From an uncultured Bacillota bacterium (GTDB lineage Bacteria > Bacillota > Clostridia > Peptostreptococcales > Anaerovoracaceae), in assembly GCA_949295785.1 (NCBI GenBank), contig CASFMJ010000110.1:1313-65312 (forward strand): a stretch of DNA of 64,000 nt, written 5' to 3'. Shown here one piece after another: positions 1,532 through 32,684 of this stretch. Every line of letters starts with the position of its first letter. Positions within the stretch are counted from its first letter, which is position 1. Below the pieces are notes generated by a model. The model was not told the origin of the DNA, did no database searches, and saw only the letters and a list, made by a program, of their open reading frames with translations. Position numbers and translations under genes: made by a program.

Positions 1532-1547
1532 TGGCATAAATTTTGCT
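1532..1547 (+). promoter_or_regulatory. sigma-54 (-24/-12) promoter of the lysine-fermentation operon
   Basis: TGGCATAAATTTTGCT matches TGGCAC-N5-TTGCW with the exact GG-to-GC spacing. It lies ~46 nt upstream of the kdd start and downstream of a bEBP gene. Confidence 0.7.
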
Positions 1548-1593
1548 TTATTTAGAAATGGCATAAAATTGAGATGAAAAAGGAGTAAGGTTT

Positions 1594-2631: not shown

Positions 2632-2771
2632 AACATCATGTATTCATAAACAATTTAAGATTTGCTATAGAAAAAAATAAATTTCTGATATATAATTAAC
2701 ACGGCAACTTATGCTCGAAATTATTTCGAGCGTAAAATTATAAAAACATTTTTTTGAGGAGGAAAAATAAA

Positions 2772-3839: not shown

Positions 3840-3998
3840 TTAAGTCCTGTATACAGAAAAATTCAGGTTAAAGTATGGAAAAGCCTGAATAATTCTGGTT
3901 TCAGAGATTATAATTCAGCGCTAAAACAAGATGCATCGTAAAACGATGAGAGAATGAAGTAAAAACAAATCTCAAAATTAAAATTTAAGGAGATCAAA

Positions 3999-5258: not shown

Positions 5259-5343
5259 TGCAGTTTTTTCGGTCTGTAAAATAAACAAATCTCTGCGGGG
5301 AGACCTTGTGTCTCCCCACAGATGTGAAAGAGGATACATAATT

Positions 5344-6360: not shown

Positions 6361-6380
6361 ACAAGCAGAAGGAGGAATAT

Positions 6381-8024: not shown

Positions 8025-8036
8025 GGAGAGAAAAGG

Positions 8037-9593: not shown

Positions 9594-10387
9594 TGACAGC
9601 AGAATGCAAAGCAACCAGCAGTGTAGATTTAACCAAAGTTAAACCTTATGGTGATACATTAAACGACGGAATGGTCGAAATGGCCTTTACTCTTCCCGTA
9701 CCTTACGGTGAAGAAGCAGAAGAAGCAGCTAAGCAGCTGGCAAAGAAAATGGGTTTTGATGAACCAAATGTAACTTACTATCATGAACTTTGTCCCGGAT
9801 TCACTTTCTTTGTAGTATACGGAAAGTGTCAGCAGACAATAGACTTCACCGCTATCAAGGTTCCTAAGGTTGAAGGAACTACGATGGACAGAGTTGAATG
9901 CGGTGAATGGATAGGCGAACATGTGGGAAGAGATATCGTAGTTGTAGGTGCTTCCATAGAATCAGACGCACACACTGTAGGTATCGATGCCATTATCCAG
10001 ATGAAAGGATTCCATGGACATTTCGGCCTTGAAAGATTTAAGCATGTAGTTCCGTATAATATGGGATCACAGGTTCCTTGTGAGGCTCTGATCGCCAAGG
10101 CTAAGGAAGTCAATGCCGATGCCATACTGGTTTCACAGACAGTAACTCAGAAGGATATTCATATCAAACAGCTGACAAAGATGGCTGAACTGCTTGAGGC
10201 CGAAGGTCTGCGTGATAAAGTTATTCTTACTTGCGGAGGTCCTAGAATTTCTCATGAACTGGCACAGGAACTGGGATACGATGCAGGTTTCGGACCGGGA
10301 AAATATGCTGAACATGTAATGAGCTATATCATGCAGGAAGTAGTCAAGAGAGGCTGGCAGAACAAACCGCAGATATCAGATCGTTAA
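9593..10387 (+). CDS. kamE: D-lysine/beta-lysine 5,6-aminomutase beta subunit (B12-binding)
   Basis: 264 aa. The cobalamin-binding DxHxxG motif is SDAHTVGID, followed by a Rossmann-like C-terminal domain. It is translationally coupled to kamD. Confidence 0.88.
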   Translation: MTAECKATSSVDLTKVKPYGDTLNDGMVEMAFTLPVPYGEEAEEAAKQLAKKMGFDEPNVTYYHELCPGFTFFVVYGKCQQTIDFTAIKVPKVEGTTMDRVECGEWIGEHVGRDIVVVGASIESDAHTVGIDAIIQMKGFHGHFGLERFKHVVPYNMGSQVPCEALIAKAKEVNADAILVSQTVTQKDIHIKQLTKMAELLEAEGLRDKVILTCGGPRISHELAQELGYDAGFGPGKYAEHVMSYIMQEVVKRGWQNKPQISDR

Positions 10388-10481
10388 AAAATTGTTCTGC
10401 TACTCATTGACATGAAGCCGAAAGTGAGTTAGAGTATATATGTTGGACATATGACAAATTTTAGGAAAGGTGATATATAAC

Positions 10482-11207
10482 ATGATTAACAAAATTATGA
10501 CTGCAGACGAAGCAGTTGCAGGCGTAAAAGACGGTATGACCATCATGGTAGGCGGATTCCTTGCAACAGGTTCCCCTGAAGTTCTGATGGATGCGCTGGT
10601 AAGAAAAGGCGTAAAGCATCTTACCGTTATCGCTAACGACGGAGGTCTCGATGCAGGACAGCCTGCAGGAGAATTCGGCGGAAAGACTGCAAGAGGCGTT
10701 GGCAAACTGCTTGAACACCACATGGTAGACCACATAATCGCTTCTCATCTTGGAGTGAACCCTAAGCTTAACGAACAGTTTGCTGAAGGTACATTAAGAT
10801 ACACACTGGTTCCTCAGGGAACCCTGGCTGAAAAGATCAGGGCTGCCGCATACGGTCTGGGCGGAGTGCTGACTCCTACCGGTGTAGGTACTCCTATGGA
10901 GACTGAACTTGATGAACTGGGAAGAGAAAAGAAGGTAGTAGAGATAGAAGGTAAAAAGTATCTTCTCGAGATGCCTCTCCGTGCTGACTATGCTTTCATC
11001 AGACCTACTGTAGCTGACAAATTCGGCAACTATTACTGCGCAAAAGCTACTAAAAACTTCAACTATGTAATGGCAGGAGCTGCAGATAAGACAATCATAG
11101 CTCCGGAAAAGATAGTTGAAATAGGTGAAATAGATCCTGATATGTTTGCTGTAGCAGGCGTTCTGGTAGATGCTATTGCGGAAGGAGAGAAACCATGGCA
11201 GATTTAA
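10482..11207 (+). CDS. atoD: 3-oxoacid (acetoacetate):butyryl/acetyl-CoA CoA-transferase subunit A
   Basis: Starts at the ATG at 10482, after AGGAAAGG. The family I CoA-transferase A signature is MTIMVGGF...G.PE. It overlaps the B subunit by 13 nt. Confidence 0.85.
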   Translation: MINKIMTADEAVAGVKDGMTIMVGGFLATGSPEVLMDALVRKGVKHLTVIANDGGLDAGQPAGEFGGKTARGVGKLLEHHMVDHIIASHLGVNPKLNEQFAEGTLRYTLVPQGTLAEKIRAAAYGLGGVLTPTGVGTPMETELDELGREKKVVEIEGKKYLLEMPLRADYAFIRPTVADKFGNYYCAKATKNFNYVMAGAADKTIIAPEKIVEIGEIDPDMFAVAGVLVDAIAEGEKPWQI

Positions 11208-11851
11208 AAACAAGAATCGCAAAGAGATGTGCGAAAGAATTTAAAGACGGTGAATTCGCCAACCTTGGAATAGGCCTGCCTACAATGGTAGCTGACTATA
11301 TCCCTGAAGATATCATGGTAACATTCCATTCCGAAAACGGATTTGCCGGTATAGACGCTATTGCTGATGAGTCAAATGTCGATGTTGACATCATCAATTC
11401 CGGCGGAACTTATGTAACCGCTCTTGACAGAGTAAAATACTTTGACACAGCCGAGTCCTTCGGTCTTGTAAGAGGCGGACATGTAAGAGCTACCGTTCTG
11501 GGCGCTATGGAAGTTGCTGAAAACGGAGACCTGGCAAACTGGATCGTTCCCGGCAAGAAAGTAGCCGGCATGGGCGGAGCTATGGACCTGTGTACAGGTT
11601 GTCCTGAGGTTATTATCGTAATGCTCCATACTCAGAAAGGTAATCCGAAGATTCTGAAGAAATGTACTCTTCCGCTTACAGCAGAAAAGTGTGTTTCCAA
11701 GATCATTACTGAAATGGGTGTAATGGAAGTAAGAGAAGACGGTATCTGGGTTGTTGAACTTCACCCCGATTATACCAAGGAAGATATCCAGGCTGCAACA
11801 GGCTGCGAACTTCACTTCGATCCTGATATGAAACCTATGGAAGAAGAATAG
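11195..11851 (+). CDS. atoA: 3-oxoacid CoA-transferase subunit B
   Basis: 218 aa. It contains the SENG motif (FHSENGF) that carries the catalytic Glu of family I CoA-transferase beta subunits. Confidence 0.85.
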   Translation: MADLKTRIAKRCAKEFKDGEFANLGIGLPTMVADYIPEDIMVTFHSENGFAGIDAIADESNVDVDIINSGGTYVTALDRVKYFDTAESFGLVRGGHVRATVLGAMEVAENGDLANWIVPGKKVAGMGGAMDLCTGCPEVIIVMLHTQKGNPKILKKCTLPLTAEKCVSKIITEMGVMEVREDGIWVVELHPDYTKEDIQAATGCELHFDPDMKPMEEE

Positions 11852-11873
11852 AATATTATATTATAAAGTAAAA

Positions 11874-11907
11874 GAGGCAGACATGAATAACATGTCTGCC
11901 CCTTTTT
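11874..11907. terminator. bidirectional terminator between convergent operons
   Basis: 10-bp stem GGCAGACATG / CATGTCTGCC with an AATAA loop. T runs are present on both strands. Confidence 0.7.
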
Positions 11908-11938
11908 ATAACATGATATTTATTACAGATTCATCCGT

Positions 11939-13138
11939 TTACTTAAGCATGTAGTTTTTCAGATCCTGACGCCTGCTTATGTTAAGTTTATGCAGACATA
12001 CAGAAATATACTGTTTGACGGTATTAGGGGAAATGTTAAGGTGTTCGCCGATTTCCTGATTTGTCCATCCGCGGGCAGCAAGCATAGCTATAGCAAATTC
12101 GGTAGTAGTAAGATTGTCAGCCACATCTTCACCGGTAGTGGGATTATGGATCTTTCGCCAGCCTGCTGAAAATCGGTATGTTATATTTATAATTTTTTTA
12201 AATTCATCAGGCCAGCTTTTTTTTATGACAGATTCCAGCATGCCACCCAGAAGACCATGATGTTCTCCGAAGCCTTCGATGAGCCCGTCAGGCATGGCAA
12301 TCTCCCATGCAGCTAAAAGATGTTCTTTGGCTTTTTCCGGCTGCTTGAGACTCATGTAATCCATTACAGCTACCAGATGAAGGTAAATAGCAGGAATAGG
12401 ATACATTTCTGACAACATGGCAAGGGTTGTCTCTGTTATGCCTATGCTTTTGCCGTAATCCTTCTGCAGATATGTATAGTGTGCCTGAACATAAAAAGCA
12501 AAAGCTCTTACGCCGGGAGGCAGTAGGGGAAGATAACCGGTAATCCTGGTAAAATTGTCGGGGAGCGGCAGATGCAGGAGTACAGAAGCCGCTGATGCGA
12601 CAAATGATTTAGCTGCAGCAACATTAATCTCTGTATTGTTGCTTTCAGATGAAAATATACGACTTAATTCGTTCAGAGCATATCGGGTCTGATTTATATG
12701 CCCTATGGCAAGATTGGAATATGCATATATTAAAAAGGCAGATAAACGTGCGCCTTCATTTTCGCTTGCCATATACAGCTCGCATATTTCTGCAGCCTGT
12801 TCAGGATGGCCGCTGAAATAATAAAATTCAGCTTTTGCAATATCCTTTTGGGTTCCCGGCTCCATTTTTTCTATATAATCAAGACAGGTTCCCGGTTTGA
12901 ATGAAGAATTCATAAGGGGCATCAGTGATGAGGCAGCCATAGACTGGGGCTTCGCATTGTATGAAGGCATTTTGTTTCTCTGCCGATTTATACGAGGGTC
13001 TTCAGCGGTTAAAGGAATAGTCCATCGGCCGTCTGTTTTTTTTGCACCCTCAATACGGTTCAGAGCACAGTATTTCTGCAGCATGCGTTCAGAAATGTTC
13101 CATTTTTCAGATGCCTGTTTTATTGACATATATTCCAT
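11939..13138 (-). CDS. LuxR-family transcriptional regulator with an N-terminal MerR/excisionase-type HTH and a TPR-like middle region
   Basis: Starts at the ATG at 13138, after GGAGG. The N-terminus reads MSIKQASEKWNISERMLQKYC. The C-terminal LuxR HTH reads EFAIAMLAARGWTNQEIGEHLNISPNTVKQYISVCLHKL. Confidence 0.8.
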   Translation of the reverse strand: MEYMSIKQASEKWNISERMLQKYCALNRIEGAKKTDGRWTIPLTAEDPRINRQRNKMPSYNAKPQSMAASSLMPLMNSSFKPGTCLDYIEKMEPGTQKDIAKAEFYYFSGHPEQAAEICELYMASENEGARLSAFLIYAYSNLAIGHINQTRYALNELSRIFSSESNNTEINVAAAKSFVASAASVLLHLPLPDNFTRITGYLPLLPPGVRAFAFYVQAHYTYLQKDYGKSIGITETTLAMLSEMYPIPAIYLHLVAVMDYMSLKQPEKAKEHLLAAWEIAMPDGLIEGFGEHHGLLGGMLESVIKKSWPDEFKKIINITYRFSAGWRKIHNPTTGEDVADNLTTTEFAIAMLAARGWTNQEIGEHLNISPNTVKQYISVCLHKLNISRRQDLKNYMLK

Positions 13139-13191
13139 GATACTTACCTCCACCGATTTATTTATAATCTCAGAATTATTTCCAAGTTATG

Positions 13192-15225
13192 TTATGATTT
13201 TTCACCTTCAATGTATAGCAGTCCTTCTCTGGTTATTCTTGAACCGGTACGGCCGGTGCCGGTATGGATAAGGCCGTTTTTCTTCAGTTCAGCCATGTAT
13301 TTTTTCAGCAGACCTTCTCCGATATTTATATTTTCTTTGTATAAACTTTGTAATATTGCCCCGCGTCCTATTCCGACATATGGAGTTGATTCTGACAGTA
13401 TAATCTTGAGAATCTTCTTCATAATATAGTCTTTACCTGCCATGTCATCATTCTGAAAAACCGCGCCAAAGCAGTCATCTGATTTTATATAATCCGGCTC
13501 AGCTGATGTGCCAGCAGGCAGATATTCGGGAAGCTGTCCCATTATCCTGTAATATGACGCTGCATTTTCCAGTTCTCTTACATTTCCGGGCCAGCTGTAT
13601 CTTAAAAGAGTCTCCTGCTCCTTTGGCAGCAGGTTATTGTATTTTTTGCCGAGGAAAACTTTGAGCAAAGGAAGAATATCGGCCTTTCTGTCTTTGAGAG
13701 GTGCAAGGTTCAGAGTTATAACATTGAGTCTGTAAAAAAGATCGCTTCTGAATTTCCCCTCAGAGACTCTTTTCTCAAGATCTGCATTGGTTGCTGCTAT
13801 TATGCGGACGTCAATATCTATTATTTTTCCGCTTCCGACCCGCATTATCTGGCGCTCCTGTATAACCCTGAGAAGCCTGGTCTGAAGGCTTGAAGAAATA
13901 TCACCTATTTCATCAAGAAAAATCGTACCATGCTGTGCATGTTCAAAAAGACCGAGTTTGCCGCTTTTTTTTGCACCTGTAAAAGAACCTTCTTCATAGC
14001 CGAAAAGCTCGCTTTCCAGAAGACTGTCAGGGATGGCTCCGCAGTTGACAGCCACAAAAGGATATTTCCTGCGTGGAGAATAATTGTGTATTGACTGAGC
14101 AAGCAATTCTTTACCCGTACCGCTTGCACCTCGTATAAGAATGGTGTAATCAGATAGGGCTGCTTTTTTTGCCATACTGATACATTGCTGCATAGAAGCA
14201 GACTGATGAATCATATCATTGAAAGTGTACCGGGCGTAAAACCCGGATTGTTTAAGTTTTCTGCTCAGGTTGTTTTCACTTTCACGAAGGTCTTTCTCGT
14301 TCTGGAAGATAAGACAGCATCCTATGGATTCATCCAGTAATGAAATATTAATTTTTTTAACCAGATAATTTCCTTCTTTAAAGACGATCATTTCATCTTC
14401 AAATGAGTCAGAAGAGGCAAGAGCATCCGGCAGATAATGATTCTGAATAAAAATATCATTTTGTTCAATGCCAAAGGTAGAAGCCGCCTGTTCGTTTATA
14501 TAATGTATGGTACCTCTGCTGTCAAGAAGGATTATTGCCTGTGATGAACCATCTACTACATTGTTAAGCATCTGATCTTTAAGAAAACTGCTCATATAAC
14601 TGTTTATGTAGTCTATACTTGTGTCCATATCCTCCTTGATTTTTTTCAGCAGATTACCATGAACATACGAGTTCTGAAGCCCCAGAAGAGAAATGACTTT
14701 GTGGAATGTCTCAAAGCTGATTTCCCGGTTATATATGTTATATACATGAGTTATATGATCCGGAACAAGGTGCTTTGAGGCTTTGGTGACTATGGCTGTG
14801 TCTATGTCGTCATAACCTCCCTGGACTGCAGTATCTTTATCGAATGGAACCAGCATAAGGTGACCTACGCCAAGCTCATATATCATGTACATGGTCTGAA
14901 GTATGCTCTGTCTTGAGTCATTTACCACAAGCACTCTGGTTCCGGCAGGTATTTCCATTACAGGATGGAGATACTTCTGCTGTATGCTTCTTGTCATTAC
15001 CACTACTTTGGAAAAATCGTCTATGTGACCTACAAGACTGCTGAGAATGTCTTCATAGCATATTACATATGCATCAGCTTCAATTCTCTCATCTTTGTCC
15101 ACCTCATTCATATAATAATTTGTAATGTTGACATAATCTCCCAGAACACTGTAAAAATTGTTTTCCAGATACTCTATAGCCGCAGGATTACACATGCTTC
15201 TGTAAATGATAGCAAGCTCTTTCAT
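13192..15225 (-). CDS. sigma-54-dependent activator (PrpR_N-like, PAS, AAA+) with an atypical winged-helix-like C-terminus
   Basis: Starts at the ATG at 15225, after GGAGG. It has Walker A GASGTGKE, the GAFTGA variant GSFTGA, and GNVRELEN. No Fis-type HTH is present. The C-terminus reads GRGAILQSLYKENINIGEGLLKKYMAELKKNGLIHTGTGRTGSRITREGLLYI. Confidence 0.88.
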   Translation of the reverse strand: MKELAIIYRSMCNPAAIEYLENNFYSVLGDYVNITNYYMNEVDKDERIEADAYVICYEDILSSLVGHIDDFSKVVVMTRSIQQKYLHPVMEIPAGTRVLVVNDSRQSILQTMYMIYELGVGHLMLVPFDKDTAVQGGYDDIDTAIVTKASKHLVPDHITHVYNIYNREISFETFHKVISLLGLQNSYVHGNLLKKIKEDMDTSIDYINSYMSSFLKDQMLNNVVDGSSQAIILLDSRGTIHYINEQAASTFGIEQNDIFIQNHYLPDALASSDSFEDEMIVFKEGNYLVKKINISLLDESIGCCLIFQNEKDLRESENNLSRKLKQSGFYARYTFNDMIHQSASMQQCISMAKKAALSDYTILIRGASGTGKELLAQSIHNYSPRRKYPFVAVNCGAIPDSLLESELFGYEEGSFTGAKKSGKLGLFEHAQHGTIFLDEIGDISSSLQTRLLRVIQERQIMRVGSGKIIDIDVRIIAATNADLEKRVSEGKFRSDLFYRLNVITLNLAPLKDRKADILPLLKVFLGKKYNNLLPKEQETLLRYSWPGNVRELENAASYYRIMGQLPEYLPAGTSAEPDYIKSDDCFGAVFQNDDMAGKDYIMKKILKIILSESTPYVGIGRGAILQSLYKENINIGEGLLKKYMAELKKNGLIHTGTGRTGSRITREGLLYIEGEKS

Positions 15226-15294
15226 GGAAGCGCCTCCATATTTTTTTATAAAAATATTGTAACAAAATATGACGCTGTCAGTCAAGAGCAGCAA

Positions 15295-15310
15295 TGGCAT
15301 GAAAGTTGCA
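15295..15310 (+). promoter_or_regulatory. sigma-54 (-24/-12) promoter
   Basis: TGGCATGAAAGTTGCA is a near-perfect match to TGGCACG-N4-TTGCA. It lies ~40 nt upstream of the SDR start codon and is divergent from the bEBP gene. Confidence 0.78.
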
Positions 15311-15349
15311 ATGATATCCTATATAAGAATACAGCATAAGGAGGGTAAA

Positions 15350-16063
15350 ATGAAAAAAGTTGCGGTTGTTACAGGAGCAGGAGCCGGAATAGGAAAAAAG
15401 ATAGCACTTCAGCTTGCCGGTGAAGGCTACAGGGTGTATGCCAATGCCAGAAGCGAGAAAAAGCTTGAGGACACTCTTGCTGCCGGCAAGGGATATGACA
15501 TCATACCTCTTATATTTGATGTAAGAGACCTGGATGCTATAGAAGAAAGCTTCAGCCACATCGACACAATTGACTGTCTTGTAAACAATGCAGGTGTGAG
15601 TATCAGAAACAAAGGAATATATGATATAAATGAGGATGACTGGGATATGATACTGGACACCAATGCAAAAGGCTATTTCTTTGTTGCGAGAGCGGCATTA
15701 AAGAAAATGAAACGTGGAGGCTGCATAATAAATATGTCCTCCGGTGCTGCCAAAACAGGAGGTGATTTTGTCTCAATACCGTATTCTACTTCCAAGGGAG
15801 CTATAAATTCTCTGACAGTATGTCTGGCAAGAGAACTTGCATCAGAAGGGATAAGGGTCAATGCTGTTTCTCCCGGATTCATTGACACTGACATGCTGAC
15901 CCTCAACGGTCAGCCAAAAGATTTTTATAGCAAGGTAATCCCCCTTGGAAGGCTTGGAGAAACAGAAGATATAGCCAATATGGTGACATTTCTGGCATCA
16001 GAAAAAGCTGGCTTTGTCACCGGACAGATCATAGAAGTCAATGGCGGAGATATAATGGGATAA
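15350..16063 (+). CDS. short-chain dehydrogenase/reductase (FabG-like)
   Basis: Starts at the ATG at 15350, after AGGAGGG. It has the TGAGAGIGK cofactor loop, NNAG, and the YSTSK catalytic Tyr/Lys. Confidence 0.9.
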   Translation: MKKVAVVTGAGAGIGKKIALQLAGEGYRVYANARSEKKLEDTLAAGKGYDIIPLIFDVRDLDAIEESFSHIDTIDCLVNNAGVSIRNKGIYDINEDDWDMILDTNAKGYFFVARAALKKMKRGGCIINMSSGAAKTGGDFVSIPYSTSKGAINSLTVCLARELASEGIRVNAVSPGFIDTDMLTLNGQPKDFYSKVIPLGRLGETEDIANMVTFLASEKAGFVTGQIIEVNGGDIMG

Positions 16064-16179
16064 ATGACAACAATAGGAATAATCCTGTTTATCCTATTAA
16101 AATCAATACTGAAATGCCGACAGTTAAAAAACGGCAGTGATTAATCTGTTGAAACTGATTTGACTGGAAAGGAAAAACA

Positions 16180-17625
16180 ATGAAAGAGAAAGGCAATGTA
16201 AAGACCCCTAATATAACTTTTGGCAAAGCGCTGCTCTGCATAGTGGGACTGGTAATAGTACTGGCGCTGGGGTTCGCCATAATCGGTCTTGACACTAAAG
16301 TCACATTTCTGATAGCATCCATAGTAGTAGGATGTTTTCTTATCGCGTACGGGTACAGACTGGATCAGGTTATGAGCTGGTATGTAGACGGCTGTAAGGG
16401 TGCGATAGAACTTATACTTATTCTTATGAGTGTCGGTACTGTAATAGGTACATGGATGGCATCGGGTACTGTACCGACAATAATTTATTACGGACTTAAA
16501 CTTCTTACGCCGACTTCATTCATGGCTATAGGATTTTTACTGTGCTGTATTGTATCATTCTTTGTAGGAAGCTCATATTCCACCCTTGCAACACTGGGAG
16601 TGGCATTTATCGGTATAGGAACCGGACTTGGCATGAACCTGGGGCTTGTAGCAGGAATGGTGCTTTCAGGAGCCATGTTTGGAGATAAAATGTCACCGTT
16701 TTCAGATACCACAAATCTGGCACCTGCCGTTTCGGGAACGACGGTATATAAGCATATAGGTTCTATGATATATACGGTGACACCCACTATGATAATCACA
16801 TTTGTACTGTATCTTATCATAAGTATGAATATAGATACTCATGCCGCGCAGATGACGTTAGTCGATGAGATGATAAGCGGTCTTGAAAAATCATTCAATA
16901 TCACACCGGTTCTTTTTGTCGTTCCGATTTTTGTGCTGACACTTGCTCTTCTTAAGGTACCTCCTGTGGTGGCAATGCTTTCGAGTGCATTTCTGGCCAT
17001 AATAATGGGAGCTTTTACTCAGACTGACCATGTGGAACTGATCAGGCTTGTAGATGCGATGGGTATAGGTTTTTCCATAGAAACAGGTGTGCCTGAACTT
17101 GATGCACTTCTTAACAGAGGCGGTATAGTTTCAATGATGGAAGTTGTGGCATGGACTCTTCTTACATTGGGAATGGGTCACTGCCTCAAAGAGGGAGGCA
17201 TACTGCATGCGTTCCTCAACAAACTGCTGGTATTTATCAAGAAGCCTAAGCAGCTGGTAATTTCCACACTGCTGTTTTCGCTGGTTACAGCGTGTCTGAC
17301 AGCATCCCAGTATCTTGCTATAATGCTTCCCGGTATGCTGCTCAGGGATGAGTATACAAAATTTAAACTCGATAAAAAGCTCCTTTCAAGGACTCTGGAA
17401 GATGGCGGTACAATGTTCTCGTTCCTTATTCCGTGGGACACTGCCGGTATATATACAGCATCGGTTCTGGGAGTTGCAACAATCACTTATGCGCCTTATG
17501 CCTTCCTTCTGTGGATAAACCCCATAATAGCGATAATATATGCGCTTATCGGCTTTGCCCAGTTTAAAGCGAAGGATGAAGATATAAAAAATGAACTCGA
17601 AGCTGAAGAAAATGCTTCTGCTTAA
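16180..17625 (+). CDS. NhaC-family Na+/H+ antiporter-type transporter
   Basis: 481 aa and polytopic (~11-12 hydrophobic segments). The overall pattern resembles the NhaC family. The call is by recall only. Confidence 0.75.
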   Translation: MKEKGNVKTPNITFGKALLCIVGLVIVLALGFAIIGLDTKVTFLIASIVVGCFLIAYGYRLDQVMSWYVDGCKGAIELILILMSVGTVIGTWMASGTVPTIIYYGLKLLTPTSFMAIGFLLCCIVSFFVGSSYSTLATLGVAFIGIGTGLGMNLGLVAGMVLSGAMFGDKMSPFSDTTNLAPAVSGTTVYKHIGSMIYTVTPTMIITFVLYLIISMNIDTHAAQMTLVDEMISGLEKSFNITPVLFVVPIFVLTLALLKVPPVVAMLSSAFLAIIMGAFTQTDHVELIRLVDAMGIGFSIETGVPELDALLNRGGIVSMMEVVAWTLLTLGMGHCLKEGGILHAFLNKLLVFIKKPKQLVISTLLFSLVTACLTASQYLAIMLPGMLLRDEYTKFKLDKKLLSRTLEDGGTMFSFLIPWDTAGIYTASVLGVATITYAPYAFLLWINPIIAIIYALIGFAQFKAKDEDIKNELEAEENASA

Positions 17626-17649
17626 TAAAATATACAGGAGGACAGATTT

Positions 17650-18492
17650 ATGCAAAAGACAGGAAAAGTAATGCTGCCCCAGGGGAAAAAAATAGCTCTC
17701 AATCTGGGATTTGACTTCGATTCATCCTCTGTATGGATGGAATCTTTCGGAAAGACCTCGCCTGTTTATACTTCAAGAGGTGAATATGGCGCAGAAGTAG
17801 GAGTGCCGCGGATTCTGGATCTTCTTGATAAATACGATATTAAATCCACTTTCTTTGTACCGGGTCACACTATAGATACATATCCTGAAGTATGCCGGGA
17901 GATAGTGGCAAGGGGACATGAGATAGCCCACCACGGTTATGTGCATGAAGATCCGACAGATCTGCCCGTGCAAGAGGAAGAAGCTATTTTGGTTAAAGGA
18001 CTGGAAGCTCTTGACAGAATAGGTGTCAAACCTGTTGGATACAGATCTCCGGGATTTGATTTCAGTCCAAACACCATGGATCTTTTGATGAAATATGATA
18101 TCAAATATGACAGCAGTCTGATGGGACAGGATTTTTATCCTTATTGTCCGGCTCCATGCAAGGTGAATTTTGATAAGGGCAATGAATTTGGAGAACCTGT
18201 CGATCTGGTGGAAATGCCGGTATCTTGGTATATGGATGATTTTCCTCATTCGGAGTTCATCATGACAAGAACAGGGATGAAACCGCAGAGCCAGATATTT
18301 GAAATATGGATCGCTACATTTGACTACGGAATAGCAAACACTGAAAACGGAATGCTGAATGTAGCAATGCATCCGCAGGTCATAGGCAGACCTCATAATA
18401 TCATGATGCTGGAAAAATTTATAAATCATGTTCTTGAATCGGGAGCATGGATTGCCCCCTTCGCGGAAATATATAAAAATATAAAATTTTAA
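17650..18492 (+). CDS. polysaccharide-deacetylase (NodB)/PuuE-like fold hydrolase
   Basis: 280 aa with RBS AGGAGG. It contains LNLGFDFD, STFFVPG and HEIAHHGYVHE, which are NodB-type Asp and His metal motifs. Confidence 0.78.
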   Translation: MQKTGKVMLPQGKKIALNLGFDFDSSSVWMESFGKTSPVYTSRGEYGAEVGVPRILDLLDKYDIKSTFFVPGHTIDTYPEVCREIVARGHEIAHHGYVHEDPTDLPVQEEEAILVKGLEALDRIGVKPVGYRSPGFDFSPNTMDLLMKYDIKYDSSLMGQDFYPYCPAPCKVNFDKGNEFGEPVDLVEMPVSWYMDDFPHSEFIMTRTGMKPQSQIFEIWIATFDYGIANTENGMLNVAMHPQVIGRPHNIMMLEKFINHVLESGAWIAPFAEIYKNIKF

Positions 18493-18542
18493 TGGCAGAG
18501 GAAAGAGGCTTTATAAGCCTCTTTCCTAATGAGGAGGTTGGC

Positions 18543-20135
18543 ATGGACAGGATATATTATAACGGCACAGTTTGTTCACTTGACAGAGAAAACAGACGAT
18601 ATACCGCAATAGGTACAGACAATGGAAAAATAAAATTTCTCGGATCAGATGAAGAAGCATTAACTTATGATGCTGCAGAAAAAATCGATCTGAAAGGCAA
18701 GGTTGTACTGCCCGGCTTTGTAGACTCCCATCTGCACATGCTGAATTATGCGTTTGTGAAAATGTCTTACGGTATGTTTGGTGCTTCGTCTATCAAAGAG
18801 ATAATACATAAAGGCAGATATATTGACCAAAACACGGCAGACCCTGAGCAGTGGATATATGGAAGAGGGTGGAATGAGGAGAACTTTACTGATGAAAAAA
18901 GACCCTTGACCAGATTTGATCTTGATAAAATATCTGTGGAAAGACCTATACTGTTCATACGTGTCTGCGGCCATAAGGCAGCTGTCAATTCCAAGGCCAT
19001 GGCCATAATCATGGGACTTGAGCAGACAAAAGACTATATTGATCAGATAGATGCAGAAAACGGTATACTGACGGAAGCATCCATAAAATTGTGCTATAAT
19101 ATAATGAAAGAACCATCCGTGGAAGAAATCAAAGAAATGATACTTACGGCGCAGAAAGATATAAACGCTGCAGGAATAACAGGTGTAGAGACAGATAATT
19201 TTCTTTCACTTCCGGGAAGAAACAGTGAAAGGATAATGAAAGCATATCGGCAGCTGGAAGAAGAAGGAAAACTTACGTTAAGGATACGTGAACAGGCGTC
19301 TTTTACTGAATTTAGTCATATGAAAGATTTCATTGACAAGGGGTACAGAACCGGCCAGGGGGGAGAGTACTACACTATAGGCCCTGTAAAACTTTATGAG
19401 GATGGATCTCTGGGAGCAAGAACAGCTCTTATGAATGCGCCTTATGTAAATAGCAGTGAACATGGAACGACTGTACACAATCAGGATGAAACCAATAATC
19501 TGGTAGATTATGCATATAAAAACAACATGCAGATACTTATCCACGCAATAGGTGACAGAGCTTCGGATATGGTTTGCGCAGCTTATGAAAAAGCCATAGA
19601 AAAATATGGTATGAAAGATCATCGTCTTGCTGTAAACCACCTTCAGATTGTCAGTGAAAATCTTTTCGACAGAATGAAGAAGTATGGAATACTGGCATAT
19701 ATACAACCTGTGTTTGTAGCATCAGATAAAGAGCTGGTGACAGATCTGGTAGGTGTAGAGGCGGCCGGCCGCTCGTATATGTGGAAGACTATGATAGATA
19801 AAGGTCTTGTATGCTGCGGCGGGTCTGATTCGCCCGTAGAAAGTTTTGATGTGCTGGAGAATATACAGGTTGCGGTTACAAGAGACAAGCCGGGGGAAAA
19901 AACACAAGGCTGGCATCCTGATCAGAAGCTTTCAATCCTTGAGGCAGTCAGACTGTTTACGGTTAACAATGCTTTCTGTGCATTCGCAGAAGAAAGGCGC
20001 GGCACGATTGAGAATGGAAAGGATGCAGATCTTACGGTCCTTGAAAAAGATATATTTGATACAGATCCACATGAAATATCAAAAATAAAAATATGCATGA
20101 CAATAGTGGCGGGAAGAGAGGTCTATAGAGGATAA
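18543..20135 (+). CDS. Amidohydro_3 (YtcJ-like) metal-dependent amidohydrolase
   Basis: The start is preferred at the ATG at 18543, after GAGGAGG; the track start at 18492 is also possible. It has the HxH motif FVDSHLHM and GGSDSPVE near the C-terminus. Confidence 0.8.
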   Translation: MDRIYYNGTVCSLDRENRRYTAIGTDNGKIKFLGSDEEALTYDAAEKIDLKGKVVLPGFVDSHLHMLNYAFVKMSYGMFGASSIKEIIHKGRYIDQNTADPEQWIYGRGWNEENFTDEKRPLTRFDLDKISVERPILFIRVCGHKAAVNSKAMAIIMGLEQTKDYIDQIDAENGILTEASIKLCYNIMKEPSVEEIKEMILTAQKDINAAGITGVETDNFLSLPGRNSERIMKAYRQLEEEGKLTLRIREQASFTEFSHMKDFIDKGYRTGQGGEYYTIGPVKLYEDGSLGARTALMNAPYVNSSEHGTTVHNQDETNNLVDYAYKNNMQILIHAIGDRASDMVCAAYEKAIEKYGMKDHRLAVNHLQIVSENLFDRMKKYGILAYIQPVFVASDKELVTDLVGVEAAGRSYMWKTMIDKGLVCCGGSDSPVESFDVLENIQVAVTRDKPGEKTQGWHPDQKLSILEAVRLFTVNNAFCAFAEERRGTIENGKDADLTVLEKDIFDTDPHEISKIKICMTIVAGREVYRG

Positions 20136-20136
20136 A

Positions 20137-21237
20137 ATGAAGAAAAAATTCAGTATAGGAGTTATCCCGGGAGACGGGGTAGGTCCTGAAGTAACAGCAG
20201 AAGGAGTGAGGGCTCTTAAAACTATAGCAGAAGTAGACGGCAGCGTTGATTTTGACTTTACATACTATCCGTGGGGATGCGATTATTATCTGAAAAATGG
20301 GATAATGATGGACGAAGATGGCCTTAAGAAGCTGGCAGTCCATGATGCCATACTTTTAGGGGCCGTAGGCGATCCGAGAGTGCCGGATCATATATCGTTA
20401 TGGAACCTTCTTTTAAAGATAAGAAAAGGTTTTGACCAGTATATAAACCTTCGACCGGTAAAGCTGCTGAAAGGTGCGCCATGTCCCCTTACGCAGACTG
20501 ACAGAAGTCAGATAGATATGATTTTTGTACGCGAAAACAGTGAGGGAGAATATTCCGGTAAAGGAAGATGGACCGGAAAAAACACCGACGGCGAAATGGC
20601 CGTTCAGGAGGATATTTTCACAAGAAAAGGATGCGAAAGAGTAATGCGGTATGCTTACATGCTGGCCCGCGAAAAAGGAAAGTCGCTGACAAGTGTGACA
20701 AAAAGTAATGCTATAAATTATTCTATGGTGTTCTGGGATAAGATATTTAATGAGCTGAAAAAAGAATTTCCCCAGGTAGAAACACATTCCTGCCTGGTAG
20801 ATGCTGCGGCCATGTATATGATAAAAGAACCGGAAAGGTTTCAGGTTGTTGTCACGTCAAATCTTTTTGGGGACATTCTTACGGATCTGGGAGCTGCCAT
20901 AGCGGGAGGAATGGGACTTGCCGCAGGGGCAAATATCAATCCGGAAAAGAAATATCCGTCTATGTTTGAACCTATCCACGGATCTGCACCGGATATCGCA
21001 GGTAAAAATATTGCAGACCCGCTTGCCACAATATGGGCAGTAAGTCAGATGCTTGAACATCTGGGCTTAAGAGATTGGGCCAGATTGCTGATAGATATAA
21101 TAGAAGAAGTACTGTATGAAAAGCAGGCGATTACTCCTGACCTGGGTGGTACCGCTAAAACTTCGGAAACAGGAGAACGGGTAGCTGAAAAAATACGAAT
21201 GAAATTTGCGGGAGGAAAAGAAAATGCCCTTGGCTAA
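20137..21237 (+). CDS. tartrate dehydrogenase/decarboxylase or D-malate dehydrogenase-like enzyme (isopropylmalate/isocitrate DH family)
   Basis: 366 aa. It contains IPGDGVGPEV, FVRENSEGEYSG, NLFGDILTDLGA and GSAPDIAGKNIANP-like blocks. Confidence 0.85.
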   Translation: MKKKFSIGVIPGDGVGPEVTAEGVRALKTIAEVDGSVDFDFTYYPWGCDYYLKNGIMMDEDGLKKLAVHDAILLGAVGDPRVPDHISLWNLLLKIRKGFDQYINLRPVKLLKGAPCPLTQTDRSQIDMIFVRENSEGEYSGKGRWTGKNTDGEMAVQEDIFTRKGCERVMRYAYMLAREKGKSLTSVTKSNAINYSMVFWDKIFNELKKEFPQVETHSCLVDAAAMYMIKEPERFQVVVTSNLFGDILTDLGAAIAGGMGLAAGANINPEKKYPSMFEPIHGSAPDIAGKNIADPLATIWAVSQMLEHLGLRDWARLLIDIIEEVLYEKQAITPDLGGTAKTSETGERVAEKIRMKFAGGKENALG

Positions 21238-22630
21238 GTTCGATCTGATCGGCATAATCCTCAATCCGTTTGTTCTCATGTTTGCGACCATAATAACAGG
21301 ACTTTTATTTGGAAAAATAAGGTTCGGAAAATTCAGTTTCGGAAGCTCGGGAGCCTTATTTACCGGACTTATAATAGGGTGGGCCGCATACAGATTTGCA
21401 CAGGTTATATACACGGGTGAGGGCCCGTCAGGAATGGATGCTGCGGTGCAGATAATAGAAGAAAACGGAGGCAAAGTAATAAACTCATATTTCTTTACTA
21501 CTGCACTCATAATTTTTGTAGCTGCTGTAGGACTGCTGGCTGCTAAGGACCTTGGTGTCGTGATAAAGAAATACGGGGTAAGGTTTATAATTCTGGCAAT
21601 GCTCATAACCTTTGTAGGCGCAGGAGCTACATATGCATGCACAGCATTTTGCAAGGATACCAATTCCTATGCAGTGACAGGTGTATATACGGGAGCAATG
21701 ACCAGCTCTCCAGGACTTGCCTCGGCTCTTGAAACGGCCGGAAACCATGCTTCAGAAATATCAGCTCAATATGAGACTCTAAGTGAATCTGAAAAGGAAA
21801 ATATTCTTGATGTGCTGAGGCTTAATGAAAAATATGAGGGTCTTACGGTCGAAAATACAGAAAGTCTTACTGAAGAGATGAGGAAGGATTATATTAATCA
21901 GGCTACAGCCCAGGTAGGAATAGGTTCTGCAGTGGGCTATCCGTTTGGCGTGATAATTGTCATACTTGCAGTAAACTTTCTCAATGTTATTTTTAAGTTT
22001 GATGTTGAAGAAGAGAAAAACAGATATATACAGGACATGCAGGCAGCCAGAAGTGTGGCCGGCAGCAGAACTGTCCCCTCTGAGGGTTTCAGTATCATAT
22101 CATTTGCCATAGTCTGCCTGGCAGGCTATGTTATAGGCTCAGTAAAACTTTATATGGGGCCTCTGGGATATATAAGCCTTGAGGCTACAGGAGGTGTACT
22201 CATAAGCGCACTCGTATTGGGATATATTGGAAAAATCGGCCCGCTCTCGTTCAGGCCTGATCCCGGGATCATGGGAGTGATAAGGGAACTGGCATTGAGC
22301 TTTTTCCTGGCTGTTGTAGGACTTAATTATGGATATGGAGCAGTTGATGCTGTTATAGGTTCAGGACTGGTGCTGGCACTTGTGAGTCTTATCGTGGGAT
22401 TCATTGCGGTAATGGTCGGGTTTATTGTCGGCAGGTATGTTTTTAAATTAAACTGGATAATACTATCAGGTGCCATATGCGGAGGAATGACATCGACCCC
22501 TGGCCTGGGAGCCGCTACCGAGGCCGTCGGAAGTGATGATCCGGGAGCCGGGTATGGAGCTACTTATCCATTTGCCTTGATGGGTATGGTTATTTTTTCT
22601 ATAATACTTAATAAACTGCCGCTTTTGTGA
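21224..22630 (+). CDS. AAE-family (YidE/YbjL, aspartate:alanine-exchanger-type) transporter
   Basis: Starts at the ATG at 21224, after GGAGG, and overlaps the upstream gene by 14 nt. Two homologous membrane halves (GALFTGL... and GGVLISAL...) are joined by a short acidic linker. Confidence 0.72.
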   Translation: MPLAKFDLIGIILNPFVLMFATIITGLLFGKIRFGKFSFGSSGALFTGLIIGWAAYRFAQVIYTGEGPSGMDAAVQIIEENGGKVINSYFFTTALIIFVAAVGLLAAKDLGVVIKKYGVRFIILAMLITFVGAGATYACTAFCKDTNSYAVTGVYTGAMTSSPGLASALETAGNHASEISAQYETLSESEKENILDVLRLNEKYEGLTVENTESLTEEMRKDYINQATAQVGIGSAVGYPFGVIIVILAVNFLNVIFKFDVEEEKNRYIQDMQAARSVAGSRTVPSEGFSIISFAIVCLAGYVIGSVKLYMGPLGYISLEATGGVLISALVLGYIGKIGPLSFRPDPGIMGVIRELALSFFLAVVGLNYGYGAVDAVIGSGLVLALVSLIVGFIAVMVGFIVGRYVFKLNWIILSGAICGGMTSTPGLGAATEAVGSDDPGAGYGATYPFALMGMVIFSIILNKLPLL

Positions 22631-32565: not shown

Positions 32566-32684
32566 TCCTTATTGAGAGCGGCTGAGGGAATAGGCCCTGC
32601 GAAGCCCGGCAACCTGTGTACATGGGTAAGACCATTATGCAAGGTGCTAAATCCTACAGAAATATCATTTCTGAAAGATGAGGA
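32566..32684 (+). promoter_or_regulatory. SAM-I (S-box) riboswitch aptamer
   Basis: The P1 arms are TCCTTAT / ATGAGGA. Conserved blocks are GAGAGCGGCTGAGGGAATAGGCCC, CCCGGCAACC and AAGGTGCTAAATCC. It lies upstream of metK. Confidence 0.9.

What the first reader, a model, noticed from the sequence alone, without database searches (positions are those of the whole stretch)
11939..22630. Second sigma-54 module driving a six-gene catabolic/transport operon that I cannot map to a described pathway
A near-consensus -24/-12 element (TGGCATGAAAGTTGCA, 15295-15310) lies divergent from a bEBP gene and ~40 nt before a tightly packed same-strand block. The packing includes stop/start contact at 18492, a 1-nt gap at 20135/20137, and a 14-nt overlap at 21224-21237. 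The block encodes an SDR, an NhaC-type antiporter, a NodB/PuuE-fold hydrolase, an Amidohydro_3 hydrolase (DSHLH), a tartrate/D-malate-dehydrogenase-type oxidative decarboxylase, and an AAE-family exchanger. Two different C-N hydrolases, a beta-decarboxylating hydroxy-acid dehydrogenase, a reductase and two transporters suggest breakdown of an amide, ureido or cyclic-amide derivative of a hydroxy-dicarboxylate. Precursor/product exchange is possible. The substrate idea is inference only.
Basis: partly seen in the sequence, partly recalled or inferred. Interest (0 to 1): 0.75.

Follow-up and report, generated by a model that had tools for sequence, protein, structure and literature searches.

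The report
Sigma-54 operon for cyclic-amide breakdown
A gut anaerobe carries a sigma-54-switched operon that most likely imports a small ring-shaped nitrogen compound, opens it with two hydrolases and burns the resulting hydroxy-acid; no described pathway matches it, but its parts and logic are of known kinds.

Summary
An exact -24/-12 element sits at 15295-15310, 39 nt before a same-strand block: SDR, NhaC transporter, CE4 hydrolase, Amidohydro_3 hydrolase, tartrate/D-malate dehydrogenase (TDH) and AAE exchanger. A bEBP gene lies divergent from it.

One detail is wrong. The Amidohydro_3 gene starts at 18543, not 18492. The 50-nt spacer holds a hairpin that is conserved in structure among relatives.

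Over 30 related loci from Anaerovoracaceae-like gut, rumen and digester bacteria keep the bEBP, the sigma-54 promoter(s) and a core of (FMN reductase)-SDR-NhaC-CE4-Amidohydro_3. TDH and AAE occur as both, either or neither. They recur next to CE4 homologues in unrelated architectures. The LuxR-type gene at 11939-13153 is strain-specific.

The CE4 belongs to the HpPgdA-like clade, which includes Pseudomonas imidase and fungal HxnM, and it keeps all catalytic residues. The closest known logic is the Aspergillus nicotinate lower pathway: FMN reductase, SDR, cyclic imidase, amidase, ending in a 2-hydroxy-dicarboxylate.

Best reading: an inducible route from a cyclic imide or ureide to a half-amide, then to a D-malate- or tartrate-type acid plus ammonia. 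The substrate is unknown. This is a new variant of a known kind, of moderate interest.

The parts
13192..15225 (-). bEBP activator (677 aa). It has an uncharacterised N-terminal domain, a PAS domain, a sigma-54 AAA+ domain (GASGTGKE, GSFTGA) and a weak winged-helix C-terminus.
   Evidence: Pfam Sigma54_activat 2.8e-70 and PAS_8. Best NCBIfam match is PrdR-like, 315 bits against a cutoff of 795, so it is not PrdR. The N- and C-terminal domains have no significant Pfam hit. Orthologues of 53-69% identity sit beside the cluster, usually divergent from it, in relatives.
15256..15285 (-). Sigma-70-type promoter of the bEBP gene (TTGACT-18-TACAAT, TG-extended).
   Evidence: Consensus scan. The CAGTCAAG...ATTGTA pair is conserved in L004, L023, L006 and L009.
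15295..15310 (+). Sigma-54 -24/-12 promoter, TGGCAT-N5-TTGCA.
   Evidence: Equivalent elements stand before the first gene of the cluster in L001, L004, L006, L009, L010, L023, L089, L091, L095, L097, L099 and L127. It matches the Clostridiales consensus TTGGCATNNNNNTTGCT (PMC6615313).
15350..16063 (+). SDR oxidoreductase (237 aa, FabG-like).
   Evidence: adh_short_C2 6.6e-57; no NCBIfam equivalog passes its cutoff. An SDR is the commonest neighbour of CE4 homologues, in 54 of 116 loci.
16064..16179 (+). SDR-NhaC spacer with inverted GGATAAA (16058-16064) / TTTATCC (16088-16094) motifs. It has no second sigma-54 promoter.
   Evidence: In L006, L009, L010 and L089 the same spacer carries similar motifs plus a second -24/-12 element.
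16180..17625 (+). NhaC-family transporter (481 aa), the presumed substrate importer.
   Evidence: TIGR00931 400.9 bits, cutoff 370. It sits immediately upstream of CE4 in 29 related loci.
17650..18492 (+). CE4_HpPgdA-like hydrolase (280 aa), a predicted Zn-dependent cyclic imide/amide ring-opening hydrolase.
   Evidence: Best PDB match is HpPgdA 3qbu at 1.4e-52, against PuuE at 1.8e-15. D22, D24, H95, H99, H241, D196 and D197 align with HpPgdA D12, D14, H86, H90, H247, D199 and D200. PuuE model TIGR03212 scores 69 bits against a cutoff of 424.6. HxnM and the P. putida imidase belong to this clade (PMC9304392, PMC8478523).
18499..18527 (+). 13-bp intercistronic hairpin with no T-tract.
   Evidence: A strong hairpin of unrelated sequence occupies the same spacer in L004, L006, L009, L010, L023, L086, L089, L091 and L127.
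18543..20135 (+). Amidohydro_3 (YtcJ-like) metallohydrolase (530 aa from the corrected start), the predicted second C-N hydrolase (half-amide or N-carbamoyl).
   Evidence: PF07969 1.6e-98. Only uncharacterised structures match (3icj, 3igh). All database names are 'amidohydrolase'. Paralogues of 43-44% identity sit in sigma-54 operons of the form bEBP / Na-Ala symporter / amidohydrolase.
20137..21237 (+). Tartrate / D-malate dehydrogenase (decarboxylating) family enzyme (366 aa).
   Evidence: TIGR02089 484.5 bits, cutoff 470.4. P. putida TDH 3flk matches at 2.7e-104.
21224..22630 (+). Short AAE-family (Asp-Al_Ex x2) exchanger (468 aa) without TrkA_C domains.
   Evidence: PF06826 1e-55 with two stretches. 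It is below the AspT cutoff. AAE genes recur with CE4 in L006, L020, L089, L091, L092 and L127, and with TDH in L126.
11939..13153 (-). LuxR/GerE-type regulator gene downstream of the bEBP. It is adjacent but not a conserved part of the module.
   Evidence: GerE and HTH_17 domains. It has no homologue in any related locus. A bidirectional terminator lies at 11870-11906.

Best explanation
This is an inducible catabolic operon of an amino-acid-fermenting Anaerovoracaceae-like bacterium.

Proposed mechanism:
1. The bEBP senses an unknown effector through its novel N-terminal domain and activates the sigma-54 promoter at 15295-15310.
2. NhaC imports a small, probably anionic, cyclic imide, ureide or lactam compound, or its hydroxylactam precursor.
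3. The SDR adjusts its oxidation state, by analogy with HxnW oxidising a hydroxylactam to an imide. In relatives an Fe-S FMN reductase acts alongside it.
4. The HpPgdA-type CE4 enzyme opens the ring to a half-amide or N-carbamoyl acid.
5. The Amidohydro_3 enzyme hydrolyses that linear C-N bond and releases ammonia.
6. The carbon product is a C4 2-hydroxy-dicarboxylate of the D-malate or tartrate type.
7. Depending on the strain, TDH oxidatively decarboxylates this product to pyruvate, and/or the AAE carrier exchanges it across the membrane.

Shown: gene content, the promoter, conservation of the core, variability of TDH and AAE, and CE4 clade membership with intact catalytic residues.

Inferred: order of reactions, ring type, identity of the product, and direction of transport.
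For: Regulation:
- The promoter and divergent bEBP are conserved in more than 12 orthologous loci, often with a second promoter before NhaC.
- GSFTGA is a functional variant of the bEBP motif.

Core:
- bEBP / (FMN_red)-SDR-NhaC-CE4-Amidohydro_3 occurs in L001-L010, L023, L086, L089-L106, L117, L118 and L127.

CE4 as a ring-opening hydrolase:
- HpPgdA is by far the closest structure, and all Zn and catalytic residues are kept.
- The clade holds the P. putida imidase and HxnM.
- The fungal hxnM-hxnW (imidase-SDR) pairing is mirrored by SDR being the top CE4 neighbour, in 54 of 116 loci.

Two-hydrolase logic. CE4 homologues are paired with a second, non-homologous amidase in other lineages:
- CN_hydrolase in 16 loci, for example Lysinibacillus and Salmonella arizonae.
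- Asparaginase_II and M20.
- AAT/C45.

Hydroxy-dicarboxylate product:
- The full seven-gene version with TDH and AAE, with overlapping genes, exists in an unrelated genomic context (L127).
- TDH homologues lie within 4 kb of CE4 paralogues in two other architectures (L084/L085/L114 and L112/L116).
- A LarA-type hydroxyacid racemase homologue and an AAE flank CE4 in C. asparagiforme.
- TDH, AAE and a class-I fumarase/tartrate-dehydratase-type enzyme cluster together in L126.
Against: - No enzyme activity is known for any protein of this cluster. HpPgdA itself was inactive on every substrate tried, including allantoin.
- TDH-family genes are very common in Clostridia at 65-70% identity, so part of the CE4-TDH proximity could be chance.
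- Most core clusters lack TDH and AAE, so the product need not be a TDH substrate.
- No natural C4 hydroxy-imide abundant in guts is known to me (own knowledge).
- Other CE4 paralogue contexts point elsewhere. One has a D-aminopeptidase, an S58 peptidase, an Asp racemase and Dtd. Another has AcnX and DHDPS hydroxyproline-type genes.
- Cyclic imides are neutral, whereas NhaC and AAE carriers usually move ions.
- rpoN could not be checked.
Confidence: 0.5

Rival explanations
1. Utilisation of D-amino-acid or peptidoglycan-derived peptides. CE4 removes an N-acyl group, or otherwise unblocks a small peptide. Amidohydro_3 then acts as a (D-)dipeptidase or N-acyl-D-amino-acid deacylase. The SDR, TDH and AAE process the released acids.
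For: - HpPgdA is nominally a peptidoglycan deacetylase, and its homologues were noted next to D-Ala-D-Ala peptidases.
- A 62%-identical CE4 sits in a sigma-54 operon with an M55 D-aminopeptidase, an S58 peptidase, an Asp racemase and a D-Tyr-tRNA deacylase (L013/L014).
- An S58 peptidase follows Amidohydro_3 in L009, L102-L104 and L117.
- D-aminoacylases belong to Amidohydro_3.
- Amidohydro_3 paralogues pair with alanine/glycine-type symporters.
Against: - HpPgdA showed no deacetylase activity on the substrates tested and has a small occluded pocket.
- This reading does not explain the tight, widespread SDR/FMN-reductase association.
- It does not explain the CN_hydrolase partners, which do not cleave peptide bonds (own knowledge).
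- It does not explain the recurrence of TDH, LarA and AAE.
Confidence: 0.15
2. Mosaic operon. The core (SDR-NhaC-CE4-Amidohydro_3) and the TDH-AAE pair are functionally unrelated. TDH and AAE form a self-contained D-malate/tartrate uptake and oxidation module that has merely been appended to a convenient promoter.
For: - TDH and AAE vary independently among near-identical synteny blocks: both, TDH only, AAE only, or none.
- TDH and AAE also co-occur in a C4-dicarboxylate cluster without CE4 (L126).
- TDH genes are ubiquitous in Clostridia.
Against: - The genes are translationally coupled to Amidohydro_3 (1-nt gap, 14-nt overlap) with no internal promoter or terminator.
- The same seven-gene order recurs in a distant genome and context (L127).
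- TDH or AAE accompany CE4 paralogues in at least three further architectures.
Confidence: 0.2
3. Pantothenate/pantetheine catabolism. The hydrolases cleave the pantoyl-beta-alanine (and beta-alanyl-cysteamine) amide bonds. The SDR oxidises pantoate. The TDH-type enzyme is the orphan (R)-3,3-dimethylmalate dehydrogenase, which yields 2-oxoisovalerate.
For: - The classical Pseudomonas pathway (own knowledge: EC 3.5.1.22, 1.1.1.106, 1.1.1.84) needs an amidase, an alcohol dehydrogenase and a D-malate-type decarboxylating dehydrogenase.
- The pantothenase gene is still unidentified (PMC10393543).
- S58 beta-aminopeptidase-type genes accompany some clusters.
Against: - CE4 belongs to a ring-opening imidase clade.
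- No aldehyde dehydrogenase is present.
- Most clusters lack TDH and so would stop at pantoate.
- Nothing in any context points to CoA or vitamin B5 metabolism.
Confidence: 0.05

Closest known systems
Lower nicotinate pathway of Aspergillus nidulans (HxnT OYE reductase, HxnW SDR, HxnM cyclic imidase, HxnN amidase, ending in alpha-hydroxyglutarate); PMC9304392, PMC8478523
   Same: - A CE4_HpPgdA-like hydrolase is paired with an SDR, and in relatives with an FMN-dependent reductase.
- A second amidase liberates ammonia.
- The end product is a 2-hydroxy-dicarboxylate.
- The imidase-SDR gene pairing is conserved.
   Different: - The second hydrolase is Amidohydro_3, not an amidase-signature enzyme.
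- The flavoprotein of relatives is an Fe-S FMN_red type, not OYE, and it is absent from the window.
- There are no ring hydroxylases.
- The host is anaerobic, control is by sigma-54, and dedicated transporters are present.
- A TDH implies a C4 (malate/tartrate-type) rather than a C5 product.
Bacterial imidase plus half-amidase route (P. putida YZ-26 imidase AAY98498; Blastobacter cyclic-imide metabolism, own knowledge)
   Same: The route is two-step: cyclic imide to half-amide to dicarboxylate plus ammonia. The P. putida imidase is in the same CE4 clade according to PMC9304392.
   Different: Those enzymes were studied in isolation in aerobes. No operon, regulator, transporter, SDR or downstream dehydrogenase was defined for them.
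PuuE allantoinase / ureide pathway
   Same: Same fold. It is a cytoplasmic small-ring amidohydrolase followed by a second amidohydrolase.
   Different: PuuE is metal-independent. The window protein keeps the Asp/His/His Zn site and scores far below the PuuE model (69 bits against 424.6).
Sigma-54/bEBP-controlled amino-acid catabolic operons of Clostridiales (PrdR, OrdR, LeuR and others; PMC6615313)
   Same: - The promoter consensus is the same.
- A divergent bEBP carries a PAS domain plus an AAA+ domain.
- An NhaC-type transporter lies inside the operon, as in the ord operon.
- The host is an amino-acid fermenter.
   Different: The target genes and the bEBP sensor domain are not among the regulons listed there. 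The C-terminus is a weak winged helix rather than a recognisable Fis-type HTH.
P. putida tartrate dehydrogenase / E. coli DmlA D-malate dehydrogenase
   Same: The window TDH passes the TIGR02089 equivalog cutoff and aligns end to end with 3flk.
   Different: Its context is inside a C-N hydrolase operon. The physiological substrate is untested.

Membership tests
Sigma-54-dependent promoter with bEBP | GG at -24 and GC at -12 with canonical spacing, placed just upstream of the regulated operon | tested here: met
   TGGCATGAAAGTTGCA lies 39 nt before the SDR start. It is conserved in orthologous loci.
Sigma-54-dependent promoter with bEBP | Adjacent activator with an AAA+ sigma-54 interaction domain and a GAFTGA-type loop | tested here: met
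   PF00158 2.8e-70. GSFTGA is read in the sequence, and this variant is accepted as functional.
Sigma-54-dependent promoter with bEBP | rpoN present in the genome; transcription depends on it | not testable with these tools
   There is no RpoN box in the 64-kb window. The rest of the genome is not available.
Sigma-54-dependent promoter with bEBP | Upstream activator sequences bound by the bEBP | tested here: inconclusive
   GGATAAA/TTTATCC motifs occur in the SDR-NhaC spacers. No clear shared motif was found upstream of the first promoter, where that region overlaps the bEBP coding sequence.
CE4_HpPgdA-like cyclic imidase clade (HxnM, P. putida imidase) | Closest to HpPgdA rather than to PuuE or polysaccharide deacetylases | tested here: met
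   3qbu 1.4e-52; PuuE 1.8e-15; PdaA/PgdA about 1e-7.
CE4_HpPgdA-like cyclic imidase clade (HxnM, P. putida imidase) | Zn ligands Asp14/His86/His90, water ligands Asp12/His247, and Asp199/Asp200 | tested here: met
   D24/H95/H99, D22/H241 and D196/D197 align (with numbering). They are invariant in 15 homologues.
CE4_HpPgdA-like cyclic imidase clade (HxnM, P. putida imidase) | Hydrolysis of a cyclic imide | not testable with these tools
   This needs an enzyme assay. Direct alignment to HxnM or AAY98498 was not possible because those sequences are not held.
PuuE allantoinase | Passes the PuuE equivalog model | tested here: not met
   TIGR03212 scores 69 bits against a cutoff of 424.6.
Tartrate/D-malate dehydrogenase (TIGR02089) | Passes the curated equivalog cutoff over its full length | tested here: met
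   484.5 bits against 470.4, residues 2-353. 3flk matches at 2.7e-104.
AspT-type aspartate:alanine antiporter | Passes the equivalog model; about 560 aa with central TrkA_C domains | tested here: not met
   TIGR03802 scores 115 bits against 547. The protein is 468 aa with only two Asp-Al_Ex repeats.
Hxn-type lower pathway (reductase-SDR-imidase-amidase) | All four enzyme roles encoded together | tested here: inconclusive
   The SDR, the imidase homologue and a second amidase (of a different family) are present. The flavin reductase is absent from the window but present in most relatives.
Secreted peptidoglycan GlcNAc/MurNAc deacetylase | Signal peptide or extracytoplasmic location; open polysaccharide groove | tested here: not met
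   The N-terminus MQKTGKVMLPQGKK has no hydrophobic leader. The gene is embedded in a cytoplasmic catabolic operon. Similarity to PdaA/PgdA is only weak.

The most novel reading that the evidence does not exclude
The operon may encode a previously unrecognised anaerobic catabolic pathway, widespread in gut, rumen and digester Clostridia, for a natural cyclic imide or ureide metabolite. That would give the enigmatic HpPgdA-like 'peptidoglycan deacetylase' family its first physiological role in bacteria. It would also define a new sigma-54 regulon with a novel effector-sensing domain. A less likely version is that it hides orphan enzymes, such as pantothenase/dimethylmalate dehydrogenase or an ATP-independent hydantoinase.
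Probability: 0.3. Interest if true: 0.7.

Novelty: new variant of a known kind. Interest (0 to 1): 0.5.

Why it matters
If the model holds, three things follow.

- It assigns a metabolic role to a large, misannotated enzyme clade. These 'polysaccharide deacetylases' would really be small-ring amidohydrolases, and the clade includes the H. pylori protein HpPgdA.
- It adds a nitrogen-releasing pathway to the repertoire of asaccharolytic gut anaerobes.
- It extends the list of sigma-54-controlled catabolic regulons in Clostridia.

The strain-level presence or absence of TDH and AAE is also a clear example of modular handling of an end product. The practical value is limited until the substrate is known.

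Tried and rejected
- The sigma-54 regulon survey of Clostridiales does not mention deacetylase, amidohydrolase or tartrate genes.
- Literature searches gave nothing relevant for 'cyclic imide hydrolase + polysaccharide deacetylase' or for 'tartrate dehydrogenase + polysaccharide deacetylase + amidohydrolase'.
- The pantothenate idea was explored. The pantothenase gene is indeed unknown, but the CE4 clade and the cluster variability argue against it.
- PuuE/allantoin: rejected on model score.
- Oxaloacetate-decarboxylase-type genes upstream of the cluster in L001 were considered as a TDH substitute. A sigma-54 promoter lies between them and NhaC, so they form a separate operon.
- Linkage to the neighbouring lysine-fermentation operon: rejected. 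The synteny exists only in close relatives. L127, L001, L006 and L009 carry the cluster elsewhere. L090 has a terminator between the two.
- Database names for Amidohydro_3 and TDH homologues gave only generic annotations.
- The SDR has only generic FabG-like structural matches.
- The FMN reductase of relatives has no PDB sequence match.
- The bEBP N-terminal domain has no Pfam match.
- Rfam finds no RNA family in the region.
- A look-up of the Bacillus homologue P0075 failed.
- A k-mer search for a shared UAS upstream of the first promoter found only coding-sequence conservation and the bEBP sigma-70 promoter.

Full report
**What is in the sequence**

On the + strand, an exact -24/-12 element (TGGCATGAAAGTTGCA, 15295-15310) precedes six genes:
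- an SDR gene (15350-16063);
- an NhaC-family transporter (16180-17625; TIGR00931 401 bits against a cutoff of 370);
- a CE4/PuuE-fold hydrolase (17650-18492);
- an Amidohydro_3 hydrolase with the DSHLH metal motif;
- a tartrate/D-malate dehydrogenase family enzyme (20137-21237; TIGR02089 484.5 bits against 470.4);
- a short AAE exchanger (21224-22630).

Divergent from these is a 677-aa bEBP (13192-15225). It has a PAS domain and an AAA+ sigma-54 interaction domain with GASGTGKE and GSFTGA. Its N-terminal 215 residues and its C-terminus match no Pfam family.

The pattern TGGCA-N6-TTGCW occurs exactly twice in 64 kb (0.41 expected). The other copy (1532) heads a lysine-fermentation operon (kdd, kamA, kamBC, kamDE, CoA-transferase) next to another bEBP.

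No + strand terminator interrupts the block. A bidirectional terminator at 11870-11906 separates it from the lysine operon.

**Corrections to the observation**

The Amidohydro_3 ORF can be extended to 18492, but three things place its start at ATG 18543:
- the start used by relatives (V/M-D-K/R-I/L-Y-Y-N-G);
- the 530-aa cluster representative;
- a GAGGAGG Shine-Dalgarno sequence 5 nt upstream.

The 50-nt CE4-Amidohydro_3 spacer holds a 13-bp hairpin (18499-18527) with no T-tract. A strong hairpin of unrelated sequence lies at the same place in nine related loci.

The 1-nt gap at 20135/20137 and the 14-nt TDH/AAE overlap are real.

The LuxR/GerE gene at 11939-13153 has no counterpart in any relative. 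It is best seen as a strain-specific insertion behind the bEBP gene.

**Comparative genomics**

The data came from three sources: a genome-collection scan and a metagenome scan with the CE4 protein, plus exact-protein look-ups. Each locus was then searched by tblastn with a panel of cluster proteins.

The conserved core is bEBP / (FMN_red)-SDR-NhaC-CE4-Amidohydro_3. It occurs in Anaerovoracaceae-like MAGs from human gut, chicken, rumen and digesters, named Fimisoma, Emergencia, 'Clostridia bacterium' and a Tissierellia bacterium.

Every such locus has a -24/-12 element before the first gene. Many have a second one before NhaC. The bEBP's own sigma-70 promoter is conserved too.

Within the block that shares the window's synteny (kamDE-atoDA ... 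G5/3D protein, AlaX), the 3' end varies:
- TDH+AAE: window and L004;
- TDH only: L023, L095, L097, L118;
- AAE only: L089, L091, L092;
- neither: L090. This locus has also lost the bEBP and NhaC. It carries a sigma-70-like promoter and a decayed -24/-12 element.

The fullest form is FMN_red-SDR-NhaC-CE4-Amidohydro_3-TDH-AAE, with overlapping genes. It occurs in a different genomic context in L127 at only about 67% identity. So TDH and AAE are recurrent members of the operon, not a one-off insertion.

Other variants append an S58 peptidase (L009, L102-L104, L117). Others use a 34%-identical Amidohydro_3 (L001-L003, L106).

**What the CE4 enzyme is**

Its best structural relative by a wide margin is H. 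pylori HpPgdA (3qbu, 1.4e-52), against PuuE at 1.8e-15 and true peptidoglycan deacetylases at about 1e-7.

All residues that bind Zn and the catalytic water in HpPgdA are conserved as D22, D24, H95, H99 and H241. The DD pair is conserved as D196/D197.

HpPgdA was inactive on all substrates tried. [quoted passage not shown]

The CDD family CE4_HpPgdA_like is annotated 'proposed as cyclic imidase'. According to the literature it contains the P. putida YZ-26 imidase and Aspergillus HxnM. HxnM opens 3-hydroxypiperidine-2,6-dione to alpha-hydroxyglutaramate.

In that fungal pathway, an FMN reductase (HxnT) and an SDR (HxnW) prepare the imide. An amidase (HxnN) then releases ammonia and alpha-hydroxyglutarate. 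hxnM-hxnW is a conserved gene pair.

The bacterial data show the same pattern. SDR genes are the commonest neighbours of CE4 homologues, in 54 of 116 loci. Most close relatives add an Fe-S FMN reductase.

**Second hydrolase and end product**

Across lineages, CE4 homologues are coupled to a second, non-homologous amidase:
- Amidohydro_3 here, in 34 loci;
- CN_hydrolase in Bacilli, Salmonella arizonae and others, in 16 loci;
- Asparaginase_II and M20;
- AAT/C45.

This is the pattern expected for ring opening followed by hydrolysis of a linear amide or carbamoyl group.

Amidohydro_3 paralogues (43-44% identity) form minimal sigma-54 operons with an alanine/glycine-type symporter. That fits small amino-acid-like amides as substrates.

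Genes that handle 2-hydroxy-dicarboxylates recur beside CE4:
- TDH homologues in two further architectures: GntR-DHDPS-AcnX-CE4 with a 2-hydroxyacid dehydrogenase and M20, and CE4 next to DHDPS-TDH-Asparaginase_II-2-hydroxyacid dehydrogenase;
- a LarA-type racemase homologue plus AAE in C. asparagiforme, near a molybdenum hydroxylase.

TDH, AAE and a class-I fumarase/tartrate-dehydratase-type enzyme also cluster without CE4 (L126). This ties the TDH-AAE pair to C4 hydroxy-dicarboxylates.

**Mechanism proposed**

1. Effector binding to the bEBP activates sigma-54 transcription.
2. NhaC imports the substrate.
3. The SDR (with FMN_red in relatives) sets the oxidation state.
4. CE4 opens the ring.
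5. Amidohydro_3 removes the remaining amide or carbamoyl nitrogen.
6. The D-malate- or tartrate-type product is oxidatively decarboxylated by TDH to pyruvate and/or exchanged by AAE.

The both/either/neither distribution of TDH and AAE fits alternative ways of disposing of one end product.

I rate the parts of this model as follows:
- sigma-54-controlled catabolic operon: about 0.85;
- ring-opening plus linear-amide hydrolysis: about 0.5;
- a C4 hydroxy-dicarboxylate product: about 0.35.

The substrate is not identified.

**Rivals**

- *Peptide or D-amino-acid substrate.* The evidence for it is the L013/L014 operon (M55, S58, Asp racemase and Dtd with CE4), the S58 genes in some clusters, and the neighbours of HpPgdA homologues. 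It does not explain the SDR/FMN_red, CN_hydrolase and TDH/LarA links.
- *Mosaic operon with an unrelated TDH-AAE module.* It is favoured by their variability and by how common TDH is in Clostridia. It is disfavoured by translational coupling and by recurrence in L127 and in other architectures.
- *Pantothenate/pantetheine catabolism.* It is attractive because pantothenase is an orphan enzyme, but it fits the CE4 clade and the core clusters poorly.

**Novelty and verdict**

All components belong to known families, and the regulatory design is typical of Clostridiales (PMC6615313). A described analogue of the chemistry exists in fungi.

However, I found no description of this bacterial operon, its bEBP or its substrate. 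The HpPgdA-like clade still lacks a physiological role in bacteria.

I class the finding as a new variant of a known kind, with moderate interest (0.5).

Noticed in passing
window 18499-18527; same spacer in L004, L006, L009, L010, L023, L086, L089, L091, L127: A strong GC-rich hairpin without a T-tract sits between the CE4 stop and the Amidohydro_3 start in every orthologous locus. The sequences are unrelated, so the structure is conserved but the sequence is not. It may be an intercistronic mRNA-stability, processing or attenuation element that sets the CE4:amidohydrolase ratio.
   Followed up: partly
window 1532-11851: A second exact sigma-54 promoter (TGGCATAAATTTTGCT, 1532) and a bEBP (10-1374) head a complete lysine-fermentation operon: two kdd paralogues, kamA, kamB, kamC, kamD, kamE and CoA-transferase A/B. 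Lysine fermentation is not among the sigma-54 regulons listed for Clostridiales in PMC6615313 (0 occurrences of 'lysine').
   Followed up: partly
window 16058-16094; L006, L009, L010, L089 SDR-NhaC spacers: Inverted GGATAAA/TTTATCC-type motifs lie in the SDR-NhaC spacer. In relatives they sit upstream of a second sigma-54 promoter, so they are candidate bEBP binding sites. The window keeps the motifs but has no second promoter.
   Followed up: partly
L090 9030-10000: This same-synteny strain has lost the bEBP and NhaC. SDR-CE4-Amidohydro_3 now follow a terminator and a sigma-70-like promoter (TATAAT). The former second sigma-54 element has decayed to cGGCATGGAAGcTGCg. This is a natural rewiring from sigma-54 to sigma-70 control.
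   Followed up: partly
L013/L014 6742-10849: In Candidatus Avanaerovorax, a paralogous sigma-54 operon encodes an M55 D-aminopeptidase, an S58 peptidase, an aspartate-type racemase, a D-Tyr-tRNA deacylase and a 62%-identical CE4. It looks like a dedicated module for D-amino-acid-containing substrates.
   Followed up: partly
L122/L123 and L124, about 4150-9600: Minimal sigma-54 modules have a bEBP divergent from a Na+/alanine-type symporter and a 43-44%-identical Amidohydro_3. They carry conserved -24/-12 elements (TGGCACAAATCTTGCC, TGGCACAGTCTTTGCT).
   Followed up: no
L084/L085/L114, about 6469-16574: GntR-DHDPS-AcnX(large+small)-CE4 lie next to a 2-hydroxyacid dehydrogenase, two 261-aa proteins with weak Asp/Glu/hydantoin-racemase similarity, a TDH homologue and an M20 peptidase. 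This is an AcnX/TDH pairing of unknown function.
   Followed up: no
window 32566-32684: A SAM (S-box) riboswitch (82.8 bits) lies upstream of the ORF at 32778-33962.
   Followed up: no
window 11939-13153: A LuxR/GerE regulator has an N-terminal HTH_17 domain and a long middle region. It is found only in this strain lineage (a 4-member cluster) and is inserted between the bEBP gene and the lysine operon terminator.
   Followed up: partly
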